DNA of 64,000 nucleotides, from contig NZ_OZ253465.1 of assembly GCF_965261555.1 (NCBI RefSeq), positions 878,667-942,666 of the forward strand, written 5' to 3'. Positions 1,071 to 22,128 of the stretch are shown here, piece by piece. Source of the stretch: Candidatus Palauibacter sp. (lineage in GTDB: Bacteria > Gemmatimonadota > Gemmatimonadetes > Palauibacterales > Palauibacteraceae). The position numbers and the translations under genes are program-made. The stretch's first letter is position 1. Each line of letters begins with the position of its first letter. The notes under the pieces are model-generated. The model had not been told where the DNA came from, ran no database searches, and saw only the letters and a list, made by a program, of their open reading frames with translations.

Positions 1071-3257
1071 GTGAGTCGTTTGCGGGGTTTTCCCTTGGCC
1101 GAGCTCGTGACCCTCGGACTGGTCGTGGCCCTTGTTCCGGGGTGTGGCAGTGAGGAGTCAGCGGGTCCAGTGCCCCCTCCCCCGCCGGAGCCCGCGCGAC
1201 CGGCCTCCGTCTCGGTCACTCCGGCCACGGTCGTGCTGACGGCCTGGCGAGACACGGTTCGGTTCTTGGCGGAGGTGCGCGACCAGCGCGGGCGCCCGCT
1301 AGAAGACGTGGCGGTGGCGTGGACGAGCGGCGACTCGGCGGTGGCGGTCGTGGATGGCTCCGGACTGGTGACGGCCGCAGGCAACGGAACCGCATTGGTG
1401 ATAGCGACCTCGGGGACGGTGTCGGCAACAGCGTCGTTGACCGTGATGCAGGAGGTGAGCCGAGTGACGGTCACGCCTGCGACCGACACGCTGGTCGCCG
1501 GCGACACGCGGCGCCTGTCCGCAGAGGCGTTCGACGCAAACGGACACACGGTGGCGAACACGGCTTTCGCCTGGAGCACAAGCGACGCGGCCGTTGCCAC
1601 CGTTGATTCCACCGGGTTGCTGCGCGGGGTGGCCGCGGGCACGGCCGTGATCGCGGCAGCCGCAGGGAGCGCGGAGGGGATGTCCGAGATCGTCGTGACC
1701 GTCGCGGGAGAGAACACCGACCGGGCGGCTCTGGTCGCCCTCTACGAAGCGACAGACGGACCGAACTGGACTAACAGCGGGAACTGGCTAACCGACGCGC
1801 CGCTGGGCGAGTGGTACGGCGTCTGGACCGACGCTTCCGGGCGGGTGATCCGCTTGGATCTCCGCGGCAGCTGGGACATCCTGTCTGTTACGGGAAATAA
1901 CCTCCGAGGTGCGCTCCCGGCTGAACTAGGGAGTCTCACTGCCCTTGAGATTCTGAACCTTACGCACAATGAACTGATCGGCCCGATCCCCCCGGAGCTG
2001 GGCAACCTGACCAGCCTCGACAGCCTGCAATTGTGGCAGAGCTCACTGATCGGCGAAATCCCGCCGGAACTGGGGAGTCTCAATGGCCTCCGGCTTCTGT
2101 CGCTGGGCTTCAACGAGTTGATTGGCAGAATTCCCCCCGAGCTTGGGAGTCTCACCAACCTCGAGATTCTGCACCTTTCCGGGAACGGGCTGACGGGGGA
2201 GATCCCACCGGAGCTGGGGAGCCTCGCCAACCTTCGGAAGTTGAACTTGCAAGGTAACGAATTGGCGGGGCCAATCCCGCGGGAGCTAGGGAATCTCGCC
2301 AACCTCGAAGAGATGTGGTTGAACTTCAACAGCTTGACGGGGGCAATCCCACCACAGTTGGGGAACTTGGCAAATCTCAAGATACTGATCCCGCAATTCA
2401 ACAAGCTGACGGGGCCGATCCCCCCGGAGCTGGGCAACCTCACCCGCCTCGAGCGGATGAACCTGCTCGCGAACGAGCTGGACGGATCAATCCCACCGGA
2501 GTTGGGGAACCTGCCTCGCCTCCGGCAGCTGAACTTGCAATCGAACGAGTTGACGGGGCCGGTCCCCCCAGAGCTGGGGAACCTCGCGAACATTGAGGCG
2601 CTGTCCCTGTCTGGCAACAAGCTGGTGGGGAGTATCCCGCCAGAGTTGGCAGACCTCAAGCGTCTCAAGCGGCTTCTCCTGGATAGCAACGAATTGACGG
2701 GCCGTATCCCCCCGGAGCTGGCAGGCATCGCGGCACTGGAGGGTCTGGCTGTGAGTTGGAACGCGCTCACGGGGAATATCCCGCCGGAGCTGGGGAACCT
2801 CGCTGCCCTCGAGTACCTGCATGTGTCCGAGACCGCTATTGCGGGCAAGGTGCCCCCGGAGTTGGGGAACCTTTCCAATCTGGATGCCTTGTACTTGTTC
2901 GGGAACGCACTGACCGGGGAGGTTCCGACCTCGTTCCTAGAGTTGACCCGGCTCCGGTCGTTTTATTGGCACGAAAATGACGGCGACCCTGCCTTGTGCG
3001 TGCCCGTCTCGCAGCCGTTCGACAGTCTGCTCGTAGGGCTGGAAGCTTGGGACGGACCGCGGTGTGCGTCGTCACGAAAGGACGCTCGCCCACCGTTGGG
3101 GGCGCGGCCTACGTGGCCGGGCGAAACGTCCGTGCTCCCTCGCGGCTTCCCCCACGGCGGCTGGCGTACAGGAGAGTGGCCGCCGCCTCCGCCCGCTCAT
3201 CCTTTCTCCGTTCCGTTCCGCCTCCCGCCTATGCCGGGAGGCGGCGACGCTCGATGA
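1071..3257 (+). CDS. Lipoprotein with two Big_2 (bacterial Ig-like) domains followed by ~18 plant-type leucine-rich repeats
   Basis: GTG start at 1071 in frame with the track ORF 930..3257. Lipobox LVPGCGS. Big_2-like segments (VSVTPATVVL...TALVIATSGTVSATASLTV). Then regular 24-residue repeats LxxLxxLxLxxNxLtGxIPPELGNL. Confidence 0.7.
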   Translation: MSRLRGFPLAELVTLGLVVALVPGCGSEESAGPVPPPPPEPARPASVSVTPATVVLTAWRDTVRFLAEVRDQRGRPLEDVAVAWTSGDSAVAVVDGSGLVTAAGNGTALVIATSGTVSATASLTVMQEVSRVTVTPATDTLVAGDTRRLSAEAFDANGHTVANTAFAWSTSDAAVATVDSTGLLRGVAAGTAVIAAAAGSAEGMSEIVVTVAGENTDRAALVALYEATDGPNWTNSGNWLTDAPLGEWYGVWTDASGRVIRLDLRGSWDILSVTGNNLRGALPAELGSLTALEILNLTHNELIGPIPPELGNLTSLDSLQLWQSSLIGEIPPELGSLNGLRLLSLGFNELIGRIPPELGSLTNLEILHLSGNGLTGEIPPELGSLANLRKLNLQGNELAGPIPRELGNLANLEEMWLNFNSLTGAIPPQLGNLANLKILIPQFNKLTGPIPPELGNLTRLERMNLLANELDGSIPPELGNLPRLRQLNLQSNELTGPVPPELGNLANIEALSLSGNKLVGSIPPELADLKRLKRLLLDSNELTGRIPPELAGIAALEGLAVSWNALTGNIPPELGNLAALEYLHVSETAIAGKVPPELGNLSNLDALYLFGNALTGEVPTSFLELTRLRSFYWHENDGDPALCVPVSQPFDSLLVGLEAWDGPRCASSRKDARPPLGARPTWPGETSVLPRGFPHGGWRTGEWPPPPPAHPFSVPFRLPPMPGGGDAR

Positions 3258-3370
3258 GGCGTAGGTGCCTTGCGGCGCTATTGTGAGCAGGGAACAGATG
3301 TCCGTGTGGCACCGGAGGAGAGCCATGATGCTATGTGCCTATCCGATCCCCTCGCATCCGAAGCTAATGG

Positions 3371-3667
3371 TCAGTTGATTGGGACATTGCCAGGCTTTGC
3401 ATGCAGAATCTCTCGAATCTTCCTAATGTGAGATTCCCGGATCGACCTTTCCCGCACTTCCAGTTCGGCCATCTCACTCGCACAAAACTCGGCCGCCGAT
3501 CGCTCCTCACCCGACAACCGCCTCACGGCATCGTCAAGAGCCGCTCGAGCCCAAGCCTTCAACGAAGGTGCTCCCTGTACATGTGCGGCCCCCTTATAGA
3601 GCCAGTGATTCTCAAGCGGAAATGCGATGTGCCTTTCCGTCGGTTCATCAGGTCGTTTCCCTGTCAT
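3371..3667 (-). CDS. Hypothetical small protein in a local low-GC patch
   Basis: 98-aa ORF in a ~430-bp stretch (3290-3720) of visibly lower GC than its surroundings. No recognisable motif. Coding status uncertain. Confidence 0.3.
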   Translation of the reverse strand: MTGKRPDEPTERHIAFPLENHWLYKGAAHVQGAPSLKAWARAALDDAVRRLSGEERSAAEFCASEMAELEVRERSIRESHIRKIREILHAKPGNVPIN

Positions 3668-3716
3668 TCTCTGTCCCTCCTCGGTCCGTGCGAGCTGTCG
3701 ACGATCACTTGACGGC

Positions 3717-4079
3717 CTAGCCGTCGCGGTGGGCGGTGTCGGGGGAAAAGGCGGGGAGGCAGATGGCGATGTACTCGGCGCCTTCCGGGCTCGGCGTGCT
3801 GTAGCGGACCCATTCGCCGGCGTGCGTGACGACCGCTTGGCCAGCCTCCACGTCCAGGGCGCCGGCTTCGTGCTCTACGCGCAGTGATCCGCGCAGCACG
3901 ACGGTGATCTCCTCGAACTCGGGACGCTGACCGGGCTCGACCCACCCGGAGGGCGCCACCATGCGCGCCACGCTGACGCCCTCGTGTCCCGTTCGGACGC
4001 GGCCGGCGTACTCCTCGATGCGCTTGGGCTTGTTCCCGGCCGCCTCGATGACGGCCGGGGCTTCGATCAAAACGGGCAT
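3717..4079 (-). CDS. Cupin-domain protein
   Basis: Chosen start MPVLIEAPAVIEAAGNKP... at the ATG whose reverse complement is 4077-4079. The sequence ...GWVEPGQRPEFEEITVVLRGSLRVEHEAG...VVTHAGEWVRY... has a small beta-barrel cupin pattern. The N-terminal 42 codons of the track ORF look non-coding. Confidence 0.5.
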   Translation of the reverse strand: MPVLIEAPAVIEAAGNKPKRIEEYAGRVRTGHEGVSVARMVAPSGWVEPGQRPEFEEITVVLRGSLRVEHEAGALDVEAGQAVVTHAGEWVRYSTPSPEGAEYIAICLPAFSPDTAHRDG

Positions 4080-4113
4080 GTCCGGGACTGGGCCCGGCGT
4101 ACTCCCGCTGTCC

Positions 4114-6150
<2,037 letters not shown>

Positions 6151-6183: not shown

Positions 6184-6855
6184 TCAGCCGCCCGGCTCCG
6201 GCGCGGCGAGCGCCTCGAGCATGATTTCCATGCGGGCGATTTCCGTGGCCTGATCGACGTGGATGTCGGAGGCCAGCTTGAAGACAAAGTCATCCTGCGC
6301 GGCGCCGTCCGTCGCGAACAATTCCCGCACCATCGTGACGGCGCCCTTGTGGTGCTGGATCATGTACCGGAGGAAGAGGCGGTCGAAGTCGGGGCCGCGC
6401 GCGGCCTCGAGTTCCGCGAGTTGTTCCGGGGTCAGCATCCCGGCCATGAGCATGGCCCCTTCCGCGTGGCCCCGCATGTCTCCGGTCTCGGGCACGGGGA
6501 GGCCGCGGTCGGAGAGCCAGCGGCTCATGACGGCGATCTCATCGGTCTGCGCGTTGATGATCCTGGCGCAGAGGGTCCGGATCGAAGGGCTCGCATCGTT
6601 GTCGGGCGCGAACCCGGCCATCACGAGCGCCTGCGCGTGGTGCGGAATCATGTGCGTCATGAAGCGGATGTCCGCCTCGTGCGCACCCTCGAGGGCGGCT
6701 TCGGCGCGCGCCTCGTAGATGGCTTCGAGTTCGGCGATGCGCGCCGCGTCTGGGCGGACGGCCTCGTCGGACGGACCGCGCCCCGCACTCGCGCACGCCT
6801 GGGCGGCCGCGAGAAGTCCTGTGAGGAGGATGAGAAGCCTGCGCTGGGTCCTCAT
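6184..6855 (-). CDS. DUF305 family protein (secreted or lipoprotein)
   Basis: Signal peptide with LLAAAQACASA. Two copies of the DUF305 hallmark (FMTHMIPHHAQAL and YMIQHHKGAV). Confidence 0.7.
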   Translation of the reverse strand: MRTQRRLLILLTGLLAAAQACASAGRGPSDEAVRPDAARIAELEAIYEARAEAALEGAHEADIRFMTHMIPHHAQALVMAGFAPDNDASPSIRTLCARIINAQTDEIAVMSRWLSDRGLPVPETGDMRGHAEGAMLMAGMLTPEQLAELEAARGPDFDRLFLRYMIQHHKGAVTMVRELFATDGAAQDDFVFKLASDIHVDQATEIARMEIMLEALAAPEPGG

Positions 6856-14691: not shown

Positions 14692-16569
14692 TCAGTGTGC
14701 GGTCTCCTGCGGGGTCGGCCGCTTCGAGGCCGGCTCCGGCACGGTCGGTTCCTCGGACGTCGTGCGGCGCAGCGGGTCGCCTTCGAAGCGCCACGCCGAC
14801 TCGAAGTCCCTCGCCGGCGCCTCGCCGCGCAGGCGCGCGCGCACCATCTCGACCGGCATCCGGCCGCCCCTGAGGATCGCGTCGTGGAAGGCGCGGTTCG
14901 TCATCCCCCCCGACTGCACGAGCTGTTCGTGGAGGGCCCGGAACTGGAGCCCGCCGATCATGTAGGCGACCTGGTACAGCGGGGAGTAGGAGCCGTTGAA
15001 GCTCCGCCGCACCTCCGCCTCCGCGTTCGCCCGCTCGTGCCCCACGCGCTCGACGAGGAAGTCGATCGCCTCCTGCGGGGTCATCCGCGCGAGGTGGAAG
15101 GAGAGGGAGAAGATGATCCGGGCCGTGCGGTGCATGCGCCAGAAAAGCATCCCGATGCGGTCCTCGGGGGTCGACGGGAAGCCGAGGTCCCAGAGCAGCA
15201 TCTCCCAGTAGAGCGCCCACCCCTCGCCCCAGAACGGGGTGGAGAAGGCGCGGCGGTGGGAGTTGAAGCGGCTCGTCATGAACCCCTGCAGGTGGTGCCC
15301 CGGAATGAGTTCGTGGTGAACGGTCGCGCGGGAGAAGTGTTCGTTGTTCCCCCGCATGCTCATGAGCTTGTACTCGTGCTCCATCCCGTCCGTGGGGAAG
15401 GAGACCTGGATCACCTCCCCGCCGAGGAAGAAGGGCGACACCTTCTGGCGCTCGGGGGACATCATCTCGATGCGCCAGATCTCGTCGGCGAGAGGTGGAA
15501 CGGTGACGAGGTCGCGCTCGGTGACGAAGGCGAGCGCCTCGTCGGCGAGTTCCCGGATCATCTGCGGCTGGTCGCCGGGGTCGCGGTGCAGCGTCTTCAC
15601 GTACTCGAGGGCCGCCCGCCAGTCGTCGCCGTAGCCGAGCTCTCGGGAGGCCTCGATCATCCGCTCCTCGCACCACGCGTACTCGCGCTCGGCGATCGCG
15701 ATGAGTTCTTCCGGCGTGTAGGGGATCATCTCGCGGCGCAGGTCCGCGGCGAGACCTTCCGCGCCGATCGGGTCGCCGACGATGGGTTCGTCCTCGCCCT
15801 CGCGGTAGCCGATGACCGACTCGCGTAGGAAGGTCGCGTAGCCATCGAGCGCGGCCCTGGCGCGGGCGTACGGGTCCTCGTTCCACCAGGTGAAGACGGG
15901 GTCGTAGCCGGCGTAGTGCTCGTACCAGTCCTCGAGGAGACGCGTGCGCTCGGCGAGCGCCGTCACCGCCCGGAGCGCGACGATCCGCGAGACATCTCCT
16001 CCGTCCTCGAGCCGGGCTTCGACTTCGCCTCGGACGGCCTCGACCTCGGCCGGGAGCTTCGCGAGACGGGCTGCGGCGGACTCCGACTCGACGGGCTGCC
16101 GGCTGCGTCGACGTTCCTCCAGCTCCACGATGAGCGAGGTGAAGGAGATGAATCCGTCCATCTCGGCGGCGAGCCCCGCCTCGCGCGTCAGCAGGTCCAG
16201 CTGGTAGCGCAGTTCGTTGAGGAGCAGGACGTAATCCACGCGTCCCTCGAGACTCAGTGCCTCAAAATCAAGCGCGTCGATCTCCTGTTGCCAGCCGGAG
16301 AAAAACTCGTTGAATCGGCGGGTGCGTTCGGGAGAGTACGAGACGGTCCACCGGCGGCCGAGGGCGACCCGGTCAGCGGAGTAGCGCTCCACGACCGGTG
16401 CGAGTTCGCTCGATTCCGTCCCGACGAGCCCCGCGACGTCCTGGGCGGACGCGGGAGCGGCGGCTGTGGCCGACGCGGCGACAAGGGCCGTGACGGCCGG
16501 GACCAGCCCCGCAGGGAACACGCGGGAAGCGCGGCGAGCGCGGCGGGCAGGGGTTCGATGCGTGGTCAT
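14692..16569 (-). CDS. DUF885 family protein (putative metallopeptidase-like)
   Basis: 625 aa with HELIPGHHLQ motif characteristic of DUF885. N-terminal signal. Start overlaps the stop of the downstream gene by 4 nt. Confidence 0.7.
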   Translation of the reverse strand: MTTHRTPARRARRASRVFPAGLVPAVTALVAASATAAAPASAQDVAGLVGTESSELAPVVERYSADRVALGRRWTVSYSPERTRRFNEFFSGWQQEIDALDFEALSLEGRVDYVLLLNELRYQLDLLTREAGLAAEMDGFISFTSLIVELEERRRSRQPVESESAAARLAKLPAEVEAVRGEVEARLEDGGDVSRIVALRAVTALAERTRLLEDWYEHYAGYDPVFTWWNEDPYARARAALDGYATFLRESVIGYREGEDEPIVGDPIGAEGLAADLRREMIPYTPEELIAIAEREYAWCEERMIEASRELGYGDDWRAALEYVKTLHRDPGDQPQMIRELADEALAFVTERDLVTVPPLADEIWRIEMMSPERQKVSPFFLGGEVIQVSFPTDGMEHEYKLMSMRGNNEHFSRATVHHELIPGHHLQGFMTSRFNSHRRAFSTPFWGEGWALYWEMLLWDLGFPSTPEDRIGMLFWRMHRTARIIFSLSFHLARMTPQEAIDFLVERVGHERANAEAEVRRSFNGSYSPLYQVAYMIGGLQFRALHEQLVQSGGMTNRAFHDAILRGGRMPVEMVRARLRGEAPARDFESAWRFEGDPLRRTTSEEPTVPEPASKRPTPQETAH

Positions 16570-18044
16570 GGGTCCACTCTCCGCAGGACGAAGTGTCCCG
16601 AAACGACGTCCATTCGAAGTTCATTGAAGGGGGCGGTAGCGCCGGCGTCTCCGGAATCGTCTCGGATGAAACGATAGAGGGTCCGCCCATCGGCGAATTC
16701 GTCGCCGCCCCGCCACGAGAGGGTGGCCGGCTCGCCGCCTCCCGTGTCGATCGTCAGTTGTCCGTCCTCGGCCGCCACCGTCGCGGTGATGCGCTGGCCG
16801 CGGGCAGGGCCTTCGTAGCGGCCCGCGTAGGGTGAGGGATCGCCCTCGAAGGGCGCCGTGGCGGGTTCCGCCGGCGCACCGAGCACCACGTCTTCGATCT
16901 GTCCCGCGATCCCGCCGGACGAGGCGCCTCCGGCCGTGTTGATGAGCACCGCGATGGACAGATCCTCGGATGGGACGTAGCGGAGGTCGGTGACGTAGCC
17001 GAAGATCCCGCCGCCGTGCCCGATCCGCGGGGTCCCGTCCCGATCCGTGATCGCGAGGCCCTTCGCGTAGCGCAGGTCCGTGCCGTCGAGCAGGGGCTCG
17101 GGCGTGATCATCAGGCGATAGCTCTCGGGAGTCAGGATCCCGCCGCCTTCCCCGTCTCCGTGGAGGGCCTGATTCCAGGCGACGAGGTCGCGCACTGTGG
17201 AGCAGAGCGACCCCGCGGCGTAGGGCCACTGGTGGTCGAGGTAGGGCGCCGGGTGCAACCCGTCGTCGCCCGGCTCGTAGCCCTTCGCGCGGTTCGGAGT
17301 GAGTTCGTCCTTGTGGCAGTAGCGGGAGTCCTCCATCCCGGCCGCGCCGAAGAGGCGCTCCTCTACGAAGTCCTCGTAGCTCATCCCGCTCGCCGCCTCG
17401 ATGACGAGTCCGGCCAGGAAGTAGCCCGAGTTGTTGTAGGTCATCGCCGTGCCGGGTTCGAAATCGAAGGGCTCGGCGGCGAAGAGCGTGACGAGCGTGT
17501 CGCGCGGGAGTTCGAGGGGAGCGAGTTCCGCCCACAGGTGCTCCATCTCGGTGTAGCCCTTGATGCCCGAGGTGTGGTCCAGGAGCTGCCGGACGGTGAC
17601 GGTCCGGTCCCCGACGGGGTAGTCGGGCAGCCACCTCGTGAGCGGGTCGTCGAGGGAGAGCTTCCCTTCCTCCTGCAGGAGGAGAACGGCGGCCGCGGTG
17701 AACTGCTTGGTCACGGATCCGACCTCGTAGACGGCGTCCGGGGGCGTGAGCACGCCGAGTTCGAGGTCGGCGTGACCGAACTCCTCGATCAGGAGCGTGT
17801 CCGTCCCGCGCACGACGGCGATGGACATGCCGGCGGCGCGGCCCGCCTCGATCGGGGACGCGGCGATGGCGTGAGTCGCGTCGATCTGGTCCGCCGTAAG
17901 CGAGGCGGGGGACGAATCGGAGCTGGCGGGATCCGATGCCGGGTCCGGCCCGGCGCAGCCGGCGACGCCAAGGGCGAGGGCCGCTGCGGCGAGCGCGCTC
18001 CCGGGCCACCCCGGGCGCGAGTGCCGGAATCTCTCTGATCTCAC
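16566..18044 (-). CDS. Beta-lactamase-related serine hydrolase (class C beta-lactamase/PBP-like)
   Basis: S-x-x-K active site SVTKQF. YxN-like region. Lipobox LGVAGCAG. GTG start at 18044 chosen. The alternative ATG at 18060 opens an Arg-rich, non-coding-looking frame. Confidence 0.65.
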   Translation of the reverse strand: MRSERFRHSRPGWPGSALAAAALALGVAGCAGPDPASDPASSDSSPASLTADQIDATHAIAASPIEAGRAAGMSIAVVRGTDTLLIEEFGHADLELGVLTPPDAVYEVGSVTKQFTAAAVLLLQEEGKLSLDDPLTRWLPDYPVGDRTVTVRQLLDHTSGIKGYTEMEHLWAELAPLELPRDTLVTLFAAEPFDFEPGTAMTYNNSGYFLAGLVIEAASGMSYEDFVEERLFGAAGMEDSRYCHKDELTPNRAKGYEPGDDGLHPAPYLDHQWPYAAGSLCSTVRDLVAWNQALHGDGEGGGILTPESYRLMITPEPLLDGTDLRYAKGLAITDRDGTPRIGHGGGIFGYVTDLRYVPSEDLSIAVLINTAGGASSGGIAGQIEDVVLGAPAEPATAPFEGDPSPYAGRYEGPARGQRITATVAAEDGQLTIDTGGGEPATLSWRGGDEFADGRTLYRFIRDDSGDAGATAPFNELRMDVVSGHFVLRRVDP

Positions 18045-18050
18045 GTCGAG

Positions 18051-18114
18051 TCTCCTGCATCTCGGTTGAACCAGACCTATCTTCGGGCGGTGGATCGGAT
18101 GTGTCGATAGCCCG
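18051..18114. repeat. Conserved non-coding block, copy A (near-identical to 19311..19374)
   Basis: tctcctgcatct + 8 variable nt + ccagacctatcttcgggcggtGgatcggatgtgtcgatagcccg. 43/44 identity with copy B in the 44-nt core. Contains inverted repeat CTATC(25 nt)GATAG. Confidence 0.7.
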
Positions 18115-18190
18115 GCGTTTGTCGTTCGGGCGGCGGCGAAGAGAGGATTTCGATGGAGTCGACGGCGACACCGGCCTCGGTCCTGTTCTG

Positions 18191-19264
18191 ATGCGCTCCC
18201 GCCCGCATGTGGCGTGGGCCGTGTTGACGGTCGTGGCCTGCTCCACAGCGGAGCCGTCCCGGCCGGAGGCTTCCGGCGGGGGCGGGCCCGTCGTCCAGCT
18301 TGCGATCGCCTCCGGCGCGTATCGCATCCAGCCACCGCGAGCCAGACTCAGTCAACTGGACGACCGTGTGAGCCTCGGATCGATCGTTGACATCCTGGTA
18401 TTGGATGACCGGATCTTCGTTGCCGATGGTCTGGATCCTCGCGTCGTTGCCTTCGACTGGAGCCTGAACCCCATCCAGGTCCACGGTCGCGAGGGAGATG
18501 GTCCCGGGGAGTTCAGATTCCCGCGACGTTTGGCGGCCGCGGGGGAGGATCGGCTCGCCGTCCTCGATCCCGGCACCGGACGGGTTTCGTATCTCGATTC
18601 TTCCGGCGATTTCGAGGACGGGGTTTCGATCTCAGCCGACGCAAGCGACTTCGCGCACCACGGATCAGTCGGCCTGCTTGTGCCCGGAGACGTGTTTCCC
18701 AACCACTACCTGGTCCGCATGAACGGTACGGAGTCTGTGCCGTTCGGGGTTATCCCGGAGAACTTTCGGGAACCCGGAGGAGTGTCCCGCGATCTGGAGC
18801 GGGTTCTGCCGAGGAGCCGGAACCTCGTCACCGTGGCCACGGATGGCCGGATCTATGTGCTGGATCAACGACAGCTGGCCCTCGTCGTCTATGAGCCGAG
18901 CGGCGAAGTCGTGGAAACCCTGCTTCTTCCCCGCGCACTGAGGGAGCGCAAGATCCAGGGGGCGGATCAAGCCATCGATGCGTTCGGGGGGAGTCTGCTC
19001 AGCATCGAGTTCGTCGGCGAGCTTCGACCTCTTGATGATGGGCGCCTGTTCGTGGGTATGACCTCCGGTGACACGGTGGGTTATGTCCTCGATCCCGAGG
19101 CCCGGCAGGCGACTCCGCTCCTCACGCCGGGCGGGTCCGAGTGGACTTGGATGCAGCGGAGTTCGATCGGAACGGCCAACATGAACAAGCTCGTGATCGG
19201 CGACAGCTGGGAGGCCGAGCTCCACGCCGCGGAGACCAAGTTCGTGGAGGCCGGTCCGTTTTAG
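18191..19264 (+). CDS. NHL-repeat beta-propeller lipoprotein (paralog of 7001..8197)
   Basis: Start MRSRPHVAWAVLTVVACS (lipobox). NHL unit GREGDGPGEFRFPRRLAAAGEDRLAVLDPGTGRVSYLD. Preceded by a 12-codon upstream ORF (18153..18191) overlapping by TGATG. Confidence 0.55.
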   Translation: MRSRPHVAWAVLTVVACSTAEPSRPEASGGGGPVVQLAIASGAYRIQPPRARLSQLDDRVSLGSIVDILVLDDRIFVADGLDPRVVAFDWSLNPIQVHGREGDGPGEFRFPRRLAAAGEDRLAVLDPGTGRVSYLDSSGDFEDGVSISADASDFAHHGSVGLLVPGDVFPNHYLVRMNGTESVPFGVIPENFREPGGVSRDLERVLPRSRNLVTVATDGRIYVLDQRQLALVVYEPSGEVVETLLLPRALRERKIQGADQAIDAFGGSLLSIEFVGELRPLDDGRLFVGMTSGDTVGYVLDPEARQATPLLTPGGSEWTWMQRSSIGTANMNKLVIGDSWEAELHAAETKFVEAGPF

Positions 19265-19310
19265 AACTCCCCGGAGCCGAAGTCAGGCTCTCTCTCCTCC
19301 CCCCGCAGCT

Positions 19311-19374
19311 TCTCCTGCATCTGATCGCGACCAGACCTATCTTCGGGCGGTAGATCGGATGTGTCGATAGCCCG
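19311..19374. repeat. Conserved non-coding block, copy B
   Basis: Same 64-nt architecture as copy A. Exactly 1260 bp downstream of copy A. Lies in the 5' region of the membrane-protein gene. Confidence 0.7.
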
Positions 19375-19423
19375 CAGCCCATTGAGCAGCCGGCTGCGGG
19401 AGCATGGAATTCAGGAGAGCGCG

Positions 19424-20644
19424 ATGGAATCGACGGTGGCACCAACGTCTGTCTTCAGGGGACGCGAGGGCGCGGCGGAGTCCGCGGACAGCATTCCGTG
19501 GCCTCTGACCGCGATCCTGTTCGCCTCGGGGGCCGTGATCGTGGGCATCACGTGGGACATCTCGTGGCACCGGACGATCGGGCGGGACACCCTCTTCACG
19601 CCCGCGCACCTGCTCGTCTACGCGGGCGGGCTGGCGGCGGGGTTGTCGTGCGGGTGGCTCGCGCTGAAGACGACGTTCTCGGGGACGGATGCGGAGGTCG
19701 GACGCTCCGTACGCATGTGGGGGTTCCGGGCGCCGCTCGGGGCCTGGGTGGCGATCTGGGGCGCGATCGCCATGCTCACGTCCGCGCCGCTCGACGACTG
19801 GTGGCACAACGCGTACGGGCTCGACGTCGAGATCCTGAGCCCACCCCACGTGGTCCTGGCGCTTGGAATCTATGCGATCCAGGTGGGCGCTCTGCTGATG
19901 GCGCTGTCGTGGCATAACCGCGCCTCGGAGACGGGCCGGCGCAAGCTCGCGTGGGCCTATGTGTTCAGCGCCGCGATGCTGATCCTGTCGCTCTCCGTGC
20001 TGCTCATGGAGTACACGTTTCCGAACCAGATGCACGGGGCGACGTTCCACCTCATCATGGCGGCGCTCTTCCCCGTCCTCCTCTTCGCCATCGGGAGGGC
20101 CGGGCAGATGCGCTGGCCGGCGACGTGCGCGGCGTTCATCTATACCGGCGTCTCGCTGGCGATGATGTGGGTGCTGCCGCTTTTCCCGGCGGAGCCGATG
20201 CTCGCGCCGATCCTGCGTCCGGTCACCCAAATGGTGCCGCCCGAGTTCCCGCTCCTCCTGTTCGCGCCCGCAATCGTGATCGACCTCCTGCTGCGGCGAC
20301 ATTCGGCGCCGGGCGAGGCGCCCGGGCGGGCCTCGACGGACTGGCGGATCGCGGCCGTGGGGGGCGTCGCCTTCGTGGCCATCTTCGGCGCGATCCAGTG
20401 GGTCTTCGCCGACTTCATGCTCTCCGAGGGGGCGCGGAACTACTTCTTCCAGGGCGACACGTGGGGCTACACGGCGGCGCCCGGCGCCTGGCAGAATGTG
20501 TTCTGGCACGGCGGCCCGTACCTCGGGGGCGACTTCTCGGCGTCGCGGTTCGTCGCCGCGGCGTGGTGGGCGCTGCCGATCGCGTTCGTCTCGGCGCGCG
20601 CGGGCCTGTGGCTGGGGAACTGGTGGCTGCGCGTCCGCCGGTGA
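19424..20644 (+). CDS. Polytopic integral membrane protein of unknown function
   Basis: About 10 hydrophobic segments. ATG at 19424 (MESTVAPTSVF...) preferred over the GTG at 19361 because the ATG module is conserved with copy A. Stop overlaps the next gene (GTGA). Confidence 0.55.
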   Translation: MESTVAPTSVFRGREGAAESADSIPWPLTAILFASGAVIVGITWDISWHRTIGRDTLFTPAHLLVYAGGLAAGLSCGWLALKTTFSGTDAEVGRSVRMWGFRAPLGAWVAIWGAIAMLTSAPLDDWWHNAYGLDVEILSPPHVVLALGIYAIQVGALLMALSWHNRASETGRRKLAWAYVFSAAMLILSLSVLLMEYTFPNQMHGATFHLIMAALFPVLLFAIGRAGQMRWPATCAAFIYTGVSLAMMWVLPLFPAEPMLAPILRPVTQMVPPEFPLLLFAPAIVIDLLLRRHSAPGEAPGRASTDWRIAAVGGVAFVAIFGAIQWVFADFMLSEGARNYFFQGDTWGYTAAPGAWQNVFWHGGPYLGGDFSASRFVAAAWWALPIAFVSARAGLWLGNWWLRVRR

Positions 20645-22128
20645 GGCCCCGGCGGGCCGCCCGCCTCGCGCGGACGGCCGCGTTCGTGGCCGGACTGTAC
20701 GTCGTGGCGACGGGGCACGTCGGGAGCAAGAACGTGTTCTTCACCGGCGAGGCGGGGCCCTACCCCGTCTCCGTCGTCATCCGTCCGCCGGAGGTCGTCC
20801 CGGGGCTGGCGGAGGTCTCCGTCCGCGTGTCGGGCGGCGGTGCGGACCGGGTGACCGTGCGCCCCGTGCGCTGGGACGCGGCCCCGGAGGGCGGCGCGCC
20901 GCCCCCCGACGTCGCCGTTCCCGTGGCGGGCGATCCCGAACTGTACGCCGCGGAACTGTGGCTCATGACGGTGGGCGCGTACCGGGTGGAGGTCGCGGTG
21001 GAGGGGGGCCGGGGGAGCGGCGAGGTCTCGGTCCCCGTGACCTCCGTCATGCTCGGAGTGCGCGACCTGCCGCCGGGTCTCGGCTGGATCCTGGCCGCAC
21101 TCGCGCTGCTCCTGGTCGCAGGCGTGGTCTCGATCACCGGGGCCGCGGTGCGGGAGAGTCAGGTTCCGGCGGGGGAGGCGGCGGGTCCCAGGCGGCGTCG
21201 CCGCGCCCGGATCGCCATGGCCCTCACCGCCGTGGGAGTCGCGGGCCTCCTCTACCTGGGGAACGCCTGGTGGGAGGCGGTCGACCGGGACGTTCGCAGC
21301 GGAATCTTCGAGCGCCTCGCCGTGGAGAGCGCGATCGTGCGCGACGGAGGGACGCCCGCTCTGCAAATCGCGATCACCGATCCCGCCTGGCGGGGCCGGG
21401 ACTGGAGCCCGCTGGTGCCGGACCACGGCAAGCTCATGCACATGTTCGTCGTCGGGGCGCCGGGGATGGACGCGTTCGCCCACGTGCACCCCGTTCCCGT
21501 GGACCCGTCCACCTTCCGCGTCCCGTGGCCGGACCTGCCGCCGGGCGAGTATCGCATCTACGGCGACATCGTCCAAGAGTCCGGCTTCGCGCAGACGGTC
21601 GTCGACACGGTGACCGTCGACGCGGCGGCGCTCGCGGTTCCCGGGGAGGTCGGCGAGGGCGCGACCCTGCTGCCGGACGCGGACGACTCGGCGTGGACGG
21701 GCCTTCCGATGGCGCTCTCGGGACCGGGATCCGAGATGCGGCTGGACGATGGTTCGATCCTCGAGTGGCAGGGCGACCGGGAGCTGCGGGTCGACGAGGA
21801 GACGGTGCTGTCGTTCAGGGTCTGGGATCCCGACGAGAAACCGGCCGAACTCGAGCCCTACATGGGGATGCGCAGCCACGCCGCGCTCACGAGGGATGAC
21901 GGGGCGGTGTTCGTGCACCTGCATCCCGCGGGCACGATCTCGATGGGCTCGCTCTCGGTGCTCGCGCCTGAAGGGTCGCCGATGGGCGGCGGCGGCGCGG
22001 CGTCCCCCACCGGCGTCGTCGAGTTCCCGTTCGCATTCCCGCAGCCGGGCGAGTACACGATCTGGGTGCAGGTCAAGCGGGAGGGCCGCGTCCTCACGGG
22101 GGCCTTCCAGGCGACGGTCATGGAGTGA
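20641..22128 (+). CDS. Secreted/membrane-anchored protein with an N-terminal signal peptide, an internal hydrophobic segment, and two repeated beta-rich modules each carrying an HxHP motif
   Basis: GTG start overlapping the upstream stop. N-terminal hydrophobic segment (TAAFVAGLYVVATG). Internal hydrophobic segment (WILAALALLLVAGVVSI). AFAHVHPVPVD and VFVHLHPAGT motifs in similar contexts suggest duplicated metal-binding modules. Confidence 0.45.
   Translation: MRPRRAARLARTAAFVAGLYVVATGHVGSKNVFFTGEAGPYPVSVVIRPPEVVPGLAEVSVRVSGGGADRVTVRPVRWDAAPEGGAPPPDVAVPVAGDPELYAAELWLMTVGAYRVEVAVEGGRGSGEVSVPVTSVMLGVRDLPPGLGWILAALALLLVAGVVSITGAAVRESQVPAGEAAGPRRRRRARIAMALTAVGVAGLLYLGNAWWEAVDRDVRSGIFERLAVESAIVRDGGTPALQIAITDPAWRGRDWSPLVPDHGKLMHMFVVGAPGMDAFAHVHPVPVDPSTFRVPWPDLPPGEYRIYGDIVQESGFAQTVVDTVTVDAAALAVPGEVGEGATLLPDADDSAWTGLPMALSGPGSEMRLDDGSILEWQGDRELRVDEETVLSFRVWDPDEKPAELEPYMGMRSHAALTRDDGAVFVHLHPAGTISMGSLSVLAPEGSPMGGGGAASPTGVVEFPFAFPQPGEYTIWVQVKREGRVLTGAFQATVME

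What the first reader, a model, noticed from the sequence alone, without database searches (positions are those of the whole stretch)
18051..19460. Near-identical 64-nt non-coding block plus start-codon module duplicated upstream of two adjacent, unrelated genes
Block A (18051-18114) and block B (19311-19374) share the 12-nt tctcctgcatct, then 8 variable nt, then a 44-nt core identical at 43/44 positions (ccagacctatcttcgggcggtRgatcggatgtgtcgatagcccg). The core has the inverted repeat CTATC-N25-GATAG. The two blocks lie exactly 1260 bp apart. Downstream of each, after a non-conserved spacer of 38 versus 49 nt, a second conserved module contains an ATG plus ~11 codons (MESTATPASVLF versus MESTVAPTSVF). 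In copy B this ATG starts the membrane-protein gene. In copy A it is a 12-codon uORF whose stop overlaps (TGATG) the ATG of an NHL-repeat lipoprotein. This looks like a mobile or duplicated promoter, operator and leader cassette, perhaps a shared regulator-binding site or RNA element, co-regulating both downstream operons.
Basis: seen in the sequence. Interest (0 to 1): 0.6.

Follow-up and report, generated by a model that had tools for sequence, protein, structure and literature searches.

The report
Duplicated promoter-leader region flanking an inserted gene
The two near-identical blocks are two copies of one native control region (probable two-way promoter, leader and first codons of a membrane-protein gene) in a Palauibacter genome; a local rearrangement placed a propeller-lipoprotein gene between them, so this is an ordinary but well-documented case of promoter capture, not a mobile element.

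Summary
The 12-nt module and 44-nt core occur twice, exactly 1260 bp apart, with 43/44 core identity and no other copy in the window.

The block is not a genome-wide repeat. In 17 Palauibacter/Gemmatimonadota species genomes it occurs once each, always between a divergent beta-lactamase-family gene (bla) and a 406-aa membrane-protein gene (memb).

In most relatives bla and memb are direct neighbours, separated by one such region. In the window and two other genomes a 6-bladed-propeller lipoprotein gene sits between two copies.

Copy A carries a different old allele of the leader than copy B. Its "uORF" is a chimera: memb codons 1-10 joined to the last codons of a small secreted-protein gene. 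In other relatives that small gene precedes the propeller gene and is translationally coupled to it (TGATG).

Three invariant blocks (CCTGCATC, CCTATCTTC, GTGTCGAT) fit a symmetric two-way sigma-70-type promoter. The -10 hexamers overlap (TATCTT/GAAGAT) and a -35 lies 17 bp away on each side. This is inferred, not shown.

There is no Rfam match, no significant RNA fold, and no plasmid or phage match. Interest is low to moderate.

The parts
16566..18044 (-). Beta-lactamase/D-aminopeptidase-family lipoprotein gene (bla), GTG start at 18044; divergent neighbour of copy A
   Evidence: Pfam PF00144, E 7.9e-64; NCBIfam D-aminopeptidase/AmpH-like, below cutoff. The N-terminal lipoprotein signal was read from the sequence. 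Synteny holds in all relatives.
18051..18062 (.). 12-nt module, copy A (TCTCCTGCATCT). On the minus strand AGGAGA (18056-18051) is the Shine-Dalgarno of bla. On the plus strand CTGCAT (18055-18060) is the proposed -35 of the rightward promoter.
   Evidence: CCTGCATC is invariant or nearly so in 26 orthologous or paralogous copies. It is retained next to memb even where bla is not adjacent.
18071..18114 (.). 44-nt core, copy A. Box 1 is CCTATCTTCGG (18076-18086), containing the overlapping -10-like hexamers TATCTT (+, 18078-18083) and GAAGAT (-, complement of 18079-18084). Box 2 is GTGTCGATAG (18101-18110); its complement contains TCGACA (18107-18102), a -35-like hexamer for the bla direction.
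   Evidence: Hexamer geometry was read from the sequence. No TSS data are available.
18115..18152 (+). Leader allele 'R-II' with Shine-Dalgarno AGAGGA (18142-18147), 5 nt before the ATG
   Evidence: The same allele is the native memb leader in L008, L009, L011, L013, L018, L019 and L026, and sits in copy A of L021 and L030.
18153..18191 (+). 12-codon chimeric leader ORF: memb codons 1-10 fused to CTG TTC TGA, the tail of the small secreted-protein ORF that precedes the propeller gene in other genomes. Its stop overlaps the propeller ATG (TGATG).
   Evidence: The junction is identical in the window, L021/L022 and L030.
18191..19264 (+). 6-bladed beta-propeller (DUF5128/NHL-like) lipoprotein gene; GC3 0.76 against about 0.9 in its neighbours; no Shine-Dalgarno of its own
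   Evidence: Pfam PF17170, E 3.4e-7; composition. Only 22 homologues were found, and in the Palauibacter loci looked up they always lie between bla and memb.
19311..19322 (.). 12-nt module, copy B (no gene follows it on the minus strand)
19331..19374 (.). 44-nt core, copy B (box 1 at 19336-19346, TATCTT at 19338-19343; box 2 at 19361-19370)
   Evidence: It is identical to the single-copy core of L001 and of L015/L024.
19371..19400 (+). Leader hairpin of allele 'R-I': CCCGCAGCC (19371-19379) / GGCTGCGGG (19392-19400)
   Evidence: RNAalifold and pair counts show 2 pairs with compensatory changes; G-U pairs favour a plus-strand RNA; 7-8 of 500 shuffles reach the observed score.
19375..19423 (+). 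Leader allele 'R-I' with Shine-Dalgarno AGGAGA (19413-19418)
19424..20644 (+). 406-aa polytopic membrane protein (memb), with no Pfam family at threshold and a weak AmoC-like hit. Its codons 2-4 (GAA TCG ACR) are invariant at the nucleotide level in all copies that head an intact memb gene.
20641..22128 (+). 495-aa protein without a family, start overlapping the memb stop; constant partner of memb

Best explanation
**What it is**

The block is the native control region between two divergently transcribed genes of Candidatus Palauibacter (Gemmatimonadota). These are a beta-lactamase-family lipoprotein gene (bla, leftward) and a membrane-protein operon (memb plus a 495-aa partner, rightward).

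In this genome the region is present twice, together with the first 10 codons of memb, because of a local rearrangement. Copy A (leader allele R-II) stays next to bla and now heads the propeller-lipoprotein gene. Copy B (leader allele R-I) stays in front of memb.

The duplication, the single-locus nature of the element and its purifying selection are shown by comparison with relatives.

**How it most likely works (inferred)**

- The three invariant blocks form a pseudo-symmetric bidirectional sigma-70-type promoter.
- Box 1 holds two -10 hexamers that overlap on opposite strands with a 1-bp offset: TATCTT rightward and GAAGAT leftward.
- The 12-mer supplies the rightward -35 (CTGCAT, 17-bp spacer). 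On the other strand it supplies the bla Shine-Dalgarno.
- Box 2 supplies the leftward -35 (TCGACA, 17-bp spacer).
- Predicted starts are near 18090 (+) and 18072 (-) for copy A, and near 19350 (+) and 19332 (-) for copy B.
- The variable 8-nt and 14-nt stretches are spacer DNA.

**The uORF**

The 12-codon ORF of copy A is a fusion scar. It keeps the memb ribosome-binding site and start. It ends at the same TGATG overlap through which the propeller gene is translationally coupled to an upstream small ORF in other genomes. The propeller gene has no Shine-Dalgarno of its own, so it is probably translated by termination-reinitiation after the leader ORF (inferred).

**Net effect**

The propeller gene has been put under the same promoter type as the memb operon.
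For: **Single copy, one locus**
- The pattern CCTATCTTCGG-N12-16-GTGTCGATAG hits 17 species genomes, all Palauibacter/Gemmatimonadota, once each. It hits one metagenome contig, once.
- All hits lie between bla and memb or directly upstream of memb.

**Ancestral-type neighbours**
- In L001 (95% memb identity), L002 and L003, bla and memb are direct divergent neighbours with one region. That region equals A-left plus core plus B-right.

**Variable architectures at the same place**
- No propeller gene in most species.
- Small ORF plus propeller gene with one core, downstream of the propeller gene (L015/L024/L025, L031).
- Tandem propeller genes with two cores (L016, L023).
- The window's arrangement in L021/L022 and L030.

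**The scar**
- The uORF junction ...TCGGTC|CTGTTCTGATG is identical in the three genomes with the window's arrangement.
- CTGTTC(T/C)GATG and CCGTTCTGATG are the native sequences upstream of the propeller gene in L032 and L024.

**Two alleles**
- The spacers of copies A and B correspond to two leader alleles found in single-copy orthologues.

**Selection**
- The boxes are invariant down to 77% memb identity, where 4-fold sites are only 59% identical.
- The core is 44/44 identical in L015, where 4-fold identity is 77%.
- A box-1-like TATTTTCGG persists in a 66%-identity orthologue.

**Promoter geometry**
- The hexamers coincide with the three invariant blocks at 17-bp spacers.
- Positions 2 and 6 of the two -10 hexamers pair with each other. 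This is as described for the 18-bp class of bacterial bidirectional promoters (bioRxiv 10.1101/2020.01.31.928960).

**Natural deletions**
- Copies upstream of memb that have no bla next to them lost box 2 and the hairpin twice, with different breakpoints (L021/L022 copy B; L032). Both kept the 12-mer, the spacer length and TATCTT.
- No bla-adjacent copy lost box 2.

**Leader**
- The leader hairpin has compensatory pairs and G-U pairs on the plus strand, so rightward transcription begins upstream of it.
Against: - No transcription-start data exist for this organism or phylum. One paper search found none.
- The sigma-70-like match is not statistically unusual. The combined criteria give about 15 hits per 64 kb in Markov-shuffled sequence. 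The rightward -35 matches only 2 of 6 positions. The standard promoter scan found nothing.
- Box 2 stays invariant in several genomes where no bla gene lies beside it (L015/L024, L031, L016, L023, window copy B). It may therefore also act for memb, as an operator or as the 5' arm of a leader helix.
- Copies A and B carry different leader alleles and different 8-nt spacers. A simple recent in-place duplication does not fit, and the exact order of events could not be reconstructed.
- The near-identity of the two cores within the window may owe something to exchange between copies. L023 shows such homogenisation, with a breakpoint in box 2.
Confidence: 0.65

Rival explanations
1. The conserved blocks are binding sites for an unidentified transcription factor. 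Candidate sites are the inverted repeat CTATC-N24-GATAG together with the direct repeat GCATCT/CTATCT 20 bp apart. The duplication would put the propeller gene and the memb operon under one regulator.
For: - The boxes are invariant while the sequence between them varies at fixed length.
- Box 2 is kept in genomes where it cannot serve bla.
- Individual modules are tandemly duplicated in some species: the 12-mer in L002 and L004, box 2 in L018 and L026.
- This reading is compatible with the promoter reading, since operators overlap promoters.
Against: - No regulator gene is called within about 6 kb on either side in any related locus fetched with its called genes, and none appeared among the six flanking window genes scanned.
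- The arms are only 5 bp long and 29 bp apart centre to centre, which is unusual for a dimeric factor.
- Box 2 was lost twice without loss of the visible part of memb.
- The blocks resemble no regulator motif I could recall; I ran no motif-database comparison.
Confidence: 0.2
2. The 3' part of the core is RNA. Box 2 (UGUCGAU) pairs with memb codons 2-4 (AUCGACR) and closes a leader domain containing a variable hairpin, the Shine-Dalgarno and the AUG. This would be a translational or stability switch copied along with the duplication.
For: - RNAalifold finds this closing helix independently in both leader alleles.
- Every copy heading an intact memb gene uses GAA, TCG and ACA/ACG at codons 2-4, although genomic GC3 is about 0.9. 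Position 3 of codon 4 is A or G, and both pair with U.
- The internal hairpin of allele R-I shows compensatory changes.
Against: - The closing helix never varies, so there is no covariation evidence.
- Folding energies are no better than shuffles, with z from -0.15 to +1.2.
- There is no Rfam family.
- L021 copy B and L032 lack box 2 and the hairpin.
- AT-rich early codons are a general feature of bacterial genes (established knowledge).
Confidence: 0.12
3. The core is a recombination (attachment-like) site, and the 1260-bp unit is a gene cassette gained and lost by site-specific recombination.
For: - Direct repeats of the core flank a single gene.
- Relatives without the gene carry exactly A-left plus core plus B-right.
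- Many rearrangements cluster at this locus.
Against: - No recombinase is called within about 6 kb in the related loci fetched with their called genes, and none appeared among the six flanking window genes scanned.
- Junctions differ between lineages and include bla fragments and gene-start fragments.
- The element has one locus per genome.
- There are no plasmid or phage relatives.
- Ordinary homologous recombination between 44-bp repeats explains loss equally well.
Confidence: 0.04

Closest known systems
Bacterial bidirectional promoters with overlapping -10 elements (18-bp class; Warman et al., bioRxiv 10.1101/2020.01.31.928960)
   Same: - The two -10-like hexamers lie on opposite strands offset by 1 bp, so that positions 2 and 6 pair with each other.
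- A -35-like hexamer lies 17 bp away on each side.
- The region sits between divergent genes.
   Different: - No TSS evidence exists here.
- The rightward -35 is poor.
- The organism is an uncultured Gemmatimonadota member whose promoter consensus is unknown.
- One copy (B) has no gene on its leftward side.
Promoter or leader capture by segmental duplication and gene-fusion scars
   Same: - A regulatory region plus the first codons of its gene is copied in front of another gene.
- The truncated start survives as a short ORF.
   Different: - The two copies carry different old alleles of the leader. This points to recombination between diverged lineages or to an old event, rather than a fresh tandem copy.
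Translational coupling by overlapping stop/start (ATGA/TGATG) and leader ORFs
   Same: - The stop of the 12-codon ORF overlaps the propeller ATG.
- The propeller gene lacks its own Shine-Dalgarno.
- The same overlap couples it to a 73-105-aa ORF in other genomes.
   Different: - The upstream ORF here is a chimera of two unrelated genes, with no evident peptide function.
- Coupling has not been tested.
REP/MITE-type intergenic repeats
   Same: - Short non-coding sequence repeated in intergenic DNA with a small inverted repeat.
   Different: - Only one copy per genome in 17 species, and two here.
- No stable hairpin.
- Always at one locus.

Membership tests
REP/MITE-like dispersed repeat | Tens to hundreds of copies per genome at unrelated loci | tested here: not met
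   One exact-pattern copy in each of 17 species genomes. One metagenome contig, single copy. The profile search finds only the two copies in the 64-kb window.
REP/MITE-like dispersed repeat | Stable palindromic hairpin or terminal inverted repeats | tested here: not met
   Only a 5-bp inverted repeat separated by 24 nt. Folds of either strand are no better than shuffles.
Known RNA family (Rfam riboswitch, leader or sRNA) | Match to a covariance model at or near the gathering score | tested here: not met
   No hit overlapping the blocks at E<=10 apart from snoRNA noise. No gathering-level hit in the whole window.
Structured cis-regulatory leader RNA (new) | Conserved secondary structure supported by covariation and by stability above background | tested here: inconclusive
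   The R-I hairpin has 2 compensatory pairs (7-8 of 500 shuffles). The box 2/codon 2-4 helix is invariant. Energy z-scores are not significant.
Bidirectional sigma-70-type promoter (overlapping -10 elements) | -10 hexamers on opposite strands with positions 2 and 6 base-paired to each other | tested here: met
   TATCTT (18078-18083) and GAAGAT (complement of 18079-18084). A at 18079 and T at 18083 serve both strands. Definition.
Bidirectional sigma-70-type promoter (overlapping -10 elements) | -35 elements at 16-18 bp on both sides | tested here: inconclusive
   Leftward TCGACA matches 5/6 at 17 bp. Rightward CTGCAT matches only 2/6 at 17 bp. Overall match quality occurs about 15 times per 64 kb by chance.
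Bidirectional sigma-70-type promoter (overlapping -10 elements) | Divergent transcription start sites about 18 bp apart | not testable with these tools
   No transcriptome data are accessible. The one paper search made found no TSS study for the phylum.
Segmental duplication / recombination scar | Paralogous copies continuous with native flanks, and relatives with a single chimeric copy | tested here: met
   L001, L010, L012 and L020 have A-left plus core plus B-right. The fusion junction is shared by the window, L021 and L030.
Integron-type or site-specific gene cassette | Adjacent integrase or recombinase, and a uniform recombination junction | tested here: not met
   No recombinase among the called genes within about 6 kb in the related loci, nor among the six flanking window genes scanned. 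Junctions are heterogeneous.
Translationally coupled gene pair | Overlapping stop/start, and a downstream gene without its own ribosome-binding site | tested here: met
   TGATG at 18189-18193. No purine-rich Shine-Dalgarno in the 15 nt before 18191. The same overlap exists with the small ORF in L016, L023, L024 and L031.
Translationally coupled gene pair | Downstream translation depends on upstream translation | not testable with these tools
   This needs reporter constructs.

The most novel reading that the evidence does not exclude
Box 2, the variable hairpin and memb codons 2-4 form a previously undescribed cis-acting leader RNA switch. It would control a widespread, uncharacterised AmoC-like membrane-protein operon. 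The duplication would have recruited the propeller lipoprotein to the same signal. Direct-repeat recombination between the two copies would provide reversible gain and loss of that gene in Palauibacter populations.
Probability: 0.08. Interest if true: 0.55.

Novelty: new member of a known kind. Interest (0 to 1): 0.27.

Why it matters
- It gives a first candidate promoter architecture, with natural deletion 'mutants', for an uncultured marine and sponge-associated Gemmatimonadota genus in which no promoter has been mapped.
- It documents how a gene can be rewired. A copy of a neighbour's promoter, leader and start codon was fused in frame so that an existing translational-coupling junction was preserved.
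- It shows that 44-bp direct repeats accompany presence/absence variation of a lipoprotein gene among genomes with at least 94.6% identical flanking proteins.
- None of this changes general understanding. Its value is as a clean, testable example and as an annotation aid for this locus.

Tried and rejected
- **Rfam.** A permissive scan of the region and a gathering-level scan of the whole window found nothing relevant.
- **Single-sequence folding.** Folds of both strands of both copies and of the predicted leaders gave no energy better than shuffles.
- **Standard promoter/terminator scan.** It found no promoter. The two terminator-like hits are within chance.
- **tRNA genes.** I looked for them in order to derive a local promoter consensus. 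The window has none.
- **Homology of the Type 1 bla-proximal region.** By eye, the bla-proximal intergenic region of genomes with the small ORF (L024, L031, L016, L023) looked like a decayed copy of the 12-mer and core. Local alignment scores were no better than shuffles, so I dropped the claim.
- **Sigma-54, ECF-type, MerR-type, LexA, Fur and PpsR motifs.** I compared these by eye from memory and none fitted. This was not a formal test.
- **Plasmid and phage searches with the 1380-bp unit.** No match.
- **Literature on Gemmatimonadota promoters or TSSs.** Nothing usable.
- **Order of rearrangement events.** I could not reconstruct it. Insertion into a single-copy ancestor and deletion from a two-copy ancestor both yield the observed chimeric single copies.
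Full report
**1. Observation**

- TCTCCTGCATCT lies at 18051-18062 and 19311-19322.
- Eight differing bases follow each 12-mer.
- The 44-nt core lies at 18071-18114 and 19331-19374 and differs only at core position 22.
- The two units are exactly 1260 bp apart.
- With up to 3 mismatches there are two matches in the window and none in 100 shuffles.
- A profile built from 26 related copies finds only these two in the window.
- The CTATC/GATAG arms are 24 nt apart, not 25.
- The copy A ATG (18153) opens a 12-codon ORF whose TGA (18189-18191) overlaps the ATG (18191) of a 357-aa lipoprotein.
- The copy B ATG (19424) starts a 406-aa membrane protein.

**2. Genes**

- Left of copy A, on the minus strand, is a beta-lactamase/D-aminopeptidase-family lipoprotein gene (bla, 16566-18044; PF00144, E 7.9e-64). 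It starts with GTG at 18044. Its Shine-Dalgarno AGGAGA is the reverse complement of the first six bases of the 12-mer.
- Between the copies lies a 6-bladed beta-propeller (DUF5128) lipoprotein gene (18191-19264). Its GC3 is lower than its neighbours': 0.76 against about 0.9.
- Right of copy B lies the membrane protein (memb). It has no Pfam family at threshold and a weak AmoC-like hit.
- A 495-aa protein without a family follows, with its start overlapping the memb stop.

**3. Organism and copy number**

memb homologues place the window in Candidatus Palauibacter (Gemmatimonadota). I scanned the collection of one genome per species with CCTATCTTCGG-N12-16-GTGTCGATAG. This gave 17 genomes, all Palauibacter or unnamed Gemmatimonadota, each with one match. 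The metagenome collection gave one contig with one match. Every match lies in the bla-memb interval or directly upstream of memb. There is no plasmid or phage similarity. The element is therefore locus-specific and not a dispersed repeat.

**4. What relatives look like**

I distinguish four architectures at this locus.
- **Type 0.** In L001, L002 and L003 (95, 89 and 77% memb identity) and most other species, bla and memb are direct divergent neighbours. They are separated by about 95-140 bp holding one 12-mer, one core and one leader.
- **Type 1.** In L015/L024/L025 and L031, bla is followed by an unrelated intergenic stretch of about 275-300 bp. Next comes a 73-105-aa ORF with a signal peptide, and then the propeller gene, whose ATG overlaps that ORF's stop. 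The 12-mer, core, leader and memb follow.
- **Type 2.** L016 and L023 carry two propeller genes, a bla fragment and two cores.
- **Type 3.** L021/L022 and L030 have the window's arrangement.

Types 0, 1 and 3 all occur among genomes whose memb proteins are at least 94.6% identical to the window's.

**5. Nature of the two copies**

Orthologous single-copy regions come in two leader alleles.
- R-I has the hairpin CCCGCAGCC...GGCTGCGGG and the Shine-Dalgarno GGAG/GGGG-AACGCG.
- R-II reads GCGTTCGTCGTTCG...GGAGAGAGGATTTCG.

Window copy B is R-I. Window copy A is R-II, as are the A copies of L021 and L030. So the 38-nt and 49-nt 'non-conserved spacers' are two old alleles, not decay after a recent copy.

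The copy A ORF reads ATG GAG TCG ACG GCG ACA CCG GCC TCG GTC | CTG TTC TGA. The left part is the memb start. The right part matches the sequence just upstream of the propeller ATG in genomes without copy A: CCGTTCTGATG in L024 and CTGTTCCGATG in L032. The junction is identical in the three Type 3 genomes, so it arose once. The 'uORF' is therefore a fusion scar that preserves the reading frame up to the old coupling stop.

Single-copy relatives of the window (L001, L010, L012, L020) have exactly A-left plus core plus B-right. This fits either of two histories: loss of the propeller gene by recombination between the two 44-bp repeats, or the ancestral state. I could not decide between them.

**6. 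Constraint**

- CCTGCATC, CCTATCTTC and GTGTCGAT are invariant or nearly so across 26 distinct copies. The 8-nt and 14-nt stretches between them vary at fixed length.
- L003 keeps the boxes although its 4-fold sites in memb are only 59% identical to the window's.
- L015 keeps all 44 core bases at 77% 4-fold identity.
- A 66%-identity orthologue (L029) still has ACGTATTTTCGGGG where the others have ACCTATCTTCGGGC.
- Exchange between copies also occurs. In L023 the region downstream of both propeller genes is identical up to a breakpoint in box 2.

**7. Mechanism (inferred)**

Hexamers with 17-bp spacers fall exactly on the invariant blocks.
- Rightward: CTGCAT (18055-18060), then 17 bp, then TATCTT (18078-18083).
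- Leftward: TCGACA (complement of 18102-18107), then 17 bp, then GAAGAT (complement of 18079-18084).

The two -10 hexamers overlap with a 1-bp offset, so position 2 of each pairs with position 6 of the other. This is the geometry reported for the commonest class of bacterial bidirectional promoters, with starts 18 bp apart.

Natural variants agree with this reading.
- L021/L022 copy B and L032 lie upstream of memb with no bla beside them. They lost box 2 and the leader hairpin by different deletions.
- Both kept the 12-mer, the spacer length and TATCTT.
- No bla-adjacent copy has lost box 2.

The R-I hairpin shows two compensatory pairs and G-U pairs on the plus strand. The rightward transcript therefore starts upstream of it, as predicted.

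Caveats:
- Match quality is not rare by chance. The rightward -35 is weak, and the standard scan is silent.
- Box 2 remains invariant in several copies that have no bla next to them.
- No TSS data exist.

**8. Other readings**

- *Regulator operator.* This is compatible with the conservation pattern, and with the tandem duplications of the 12-mer (L002, L004) and of box 2 (L018, L026). No regulator gene is linked, however.
- *Leader-RNA reading.* Box 2 would pair with codons 2-4. RNAalifold proposes this helix in both alleles. It never varies and is not thermodynamically distinctive.
- *Site-specific cassette.* This lacks a recombinase and a uniform junction.

**9. Verdict**

- The interpretation 'duplicated promoter/leader cassette heading two genes' is essentially right.
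- 'Mobile' and 'RNA element' are not supported.
- It is a lineage-specific example of known processes: bidirectional promoter, segmental rearrangement, promoter capture and translational coupling. Its interest is modest.

Noticed in passing
window 19424-22128; memb (406 aa, polytopic) has no Pfam family at threshold and only a weak AmoC-like hit (E about 1e-3). Yet more than 7,500 homologues were scored, in Gemmatimonadota, Acidobacteriota and others. In every locus whose sequence or gene calls extend beyond memb, it is followed by an approximately 500-aa protein with no family. This is a widespread uncharacterised gene pair.
   Followed up: partly
L016 3340-7380; L023 4270-8150: Tandem duplication of the propeller gene together with a fragment of bla (residues about 244-490) and a second 12-mer/core/leader carrying only the first 3-5 memb codons. 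In L023 the sequences downstream of both propeller genes are identical up to a breakpoint inside box 2, which indicates gene conversion.
   Followed up: partly
L002 5866-5899; L004 7891-7922; L018 5569-5620; L026 (minus strand, about 4290-4350); L014 (leader): Small tandem duplications of single modules. The 12-mer is present twice 20-22 nt apart (L002, L004). Box 2 is present twice 12 nt apart (L018, L026). The Shine-Dalgarno unit GGGGAACGCAG is repeated three times (L014).
   Followed up: no
L024 4780-5001; L031 2184-2501; L016 and L023 upstream of the first propeller gene: A conserved 73-105-aa ORF with a signal peptide (MR..LLLA...AVEAQSEC.EYISG...) precedes the propeller gene, and its stop overlaps the propeller ATG. 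It is absent from the window, where only its last codons survive in the 12-codon ORF.
   Followed up: partly
L027 1934-2944 (minus) and 3001-4239: In a more distant lineage (72% memb identity) a DUF5128 propeller gene lies divergently, 57 nt upstream of memb. The propeller-memb association therefore recurs in a different orientation.
   Followed up: no
L024 about 6270-6332: CTGATCTCGC, about 30 nt left of the 12-mer, resembles the reverse complement of the bla start region (CTGATCTCAC in the window, 18036-18045). It may be a fossil of a bla start left beside the memb-proximal copy.
   Followed up: no
window 19265-19310: The 46 nt between the propeller stop and copy B are nearly identical in L021, L030, L031 and L032. 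They contain a small stem (GAGCC N7 GGCTC) followed by a C/T-rich run. If copy B fires leftward, it would produce RNA antisense to this stretch and to the propeller 3' end.
   Followed up: no
window 18092 versus 19352; L030 copies A and B: The single A/B difference in the core (position 22, G/A) is swapped in L030: its copy A has A and its copy B has G. This suggests exchange between copies or recurrent mutation.
   Followed up: no
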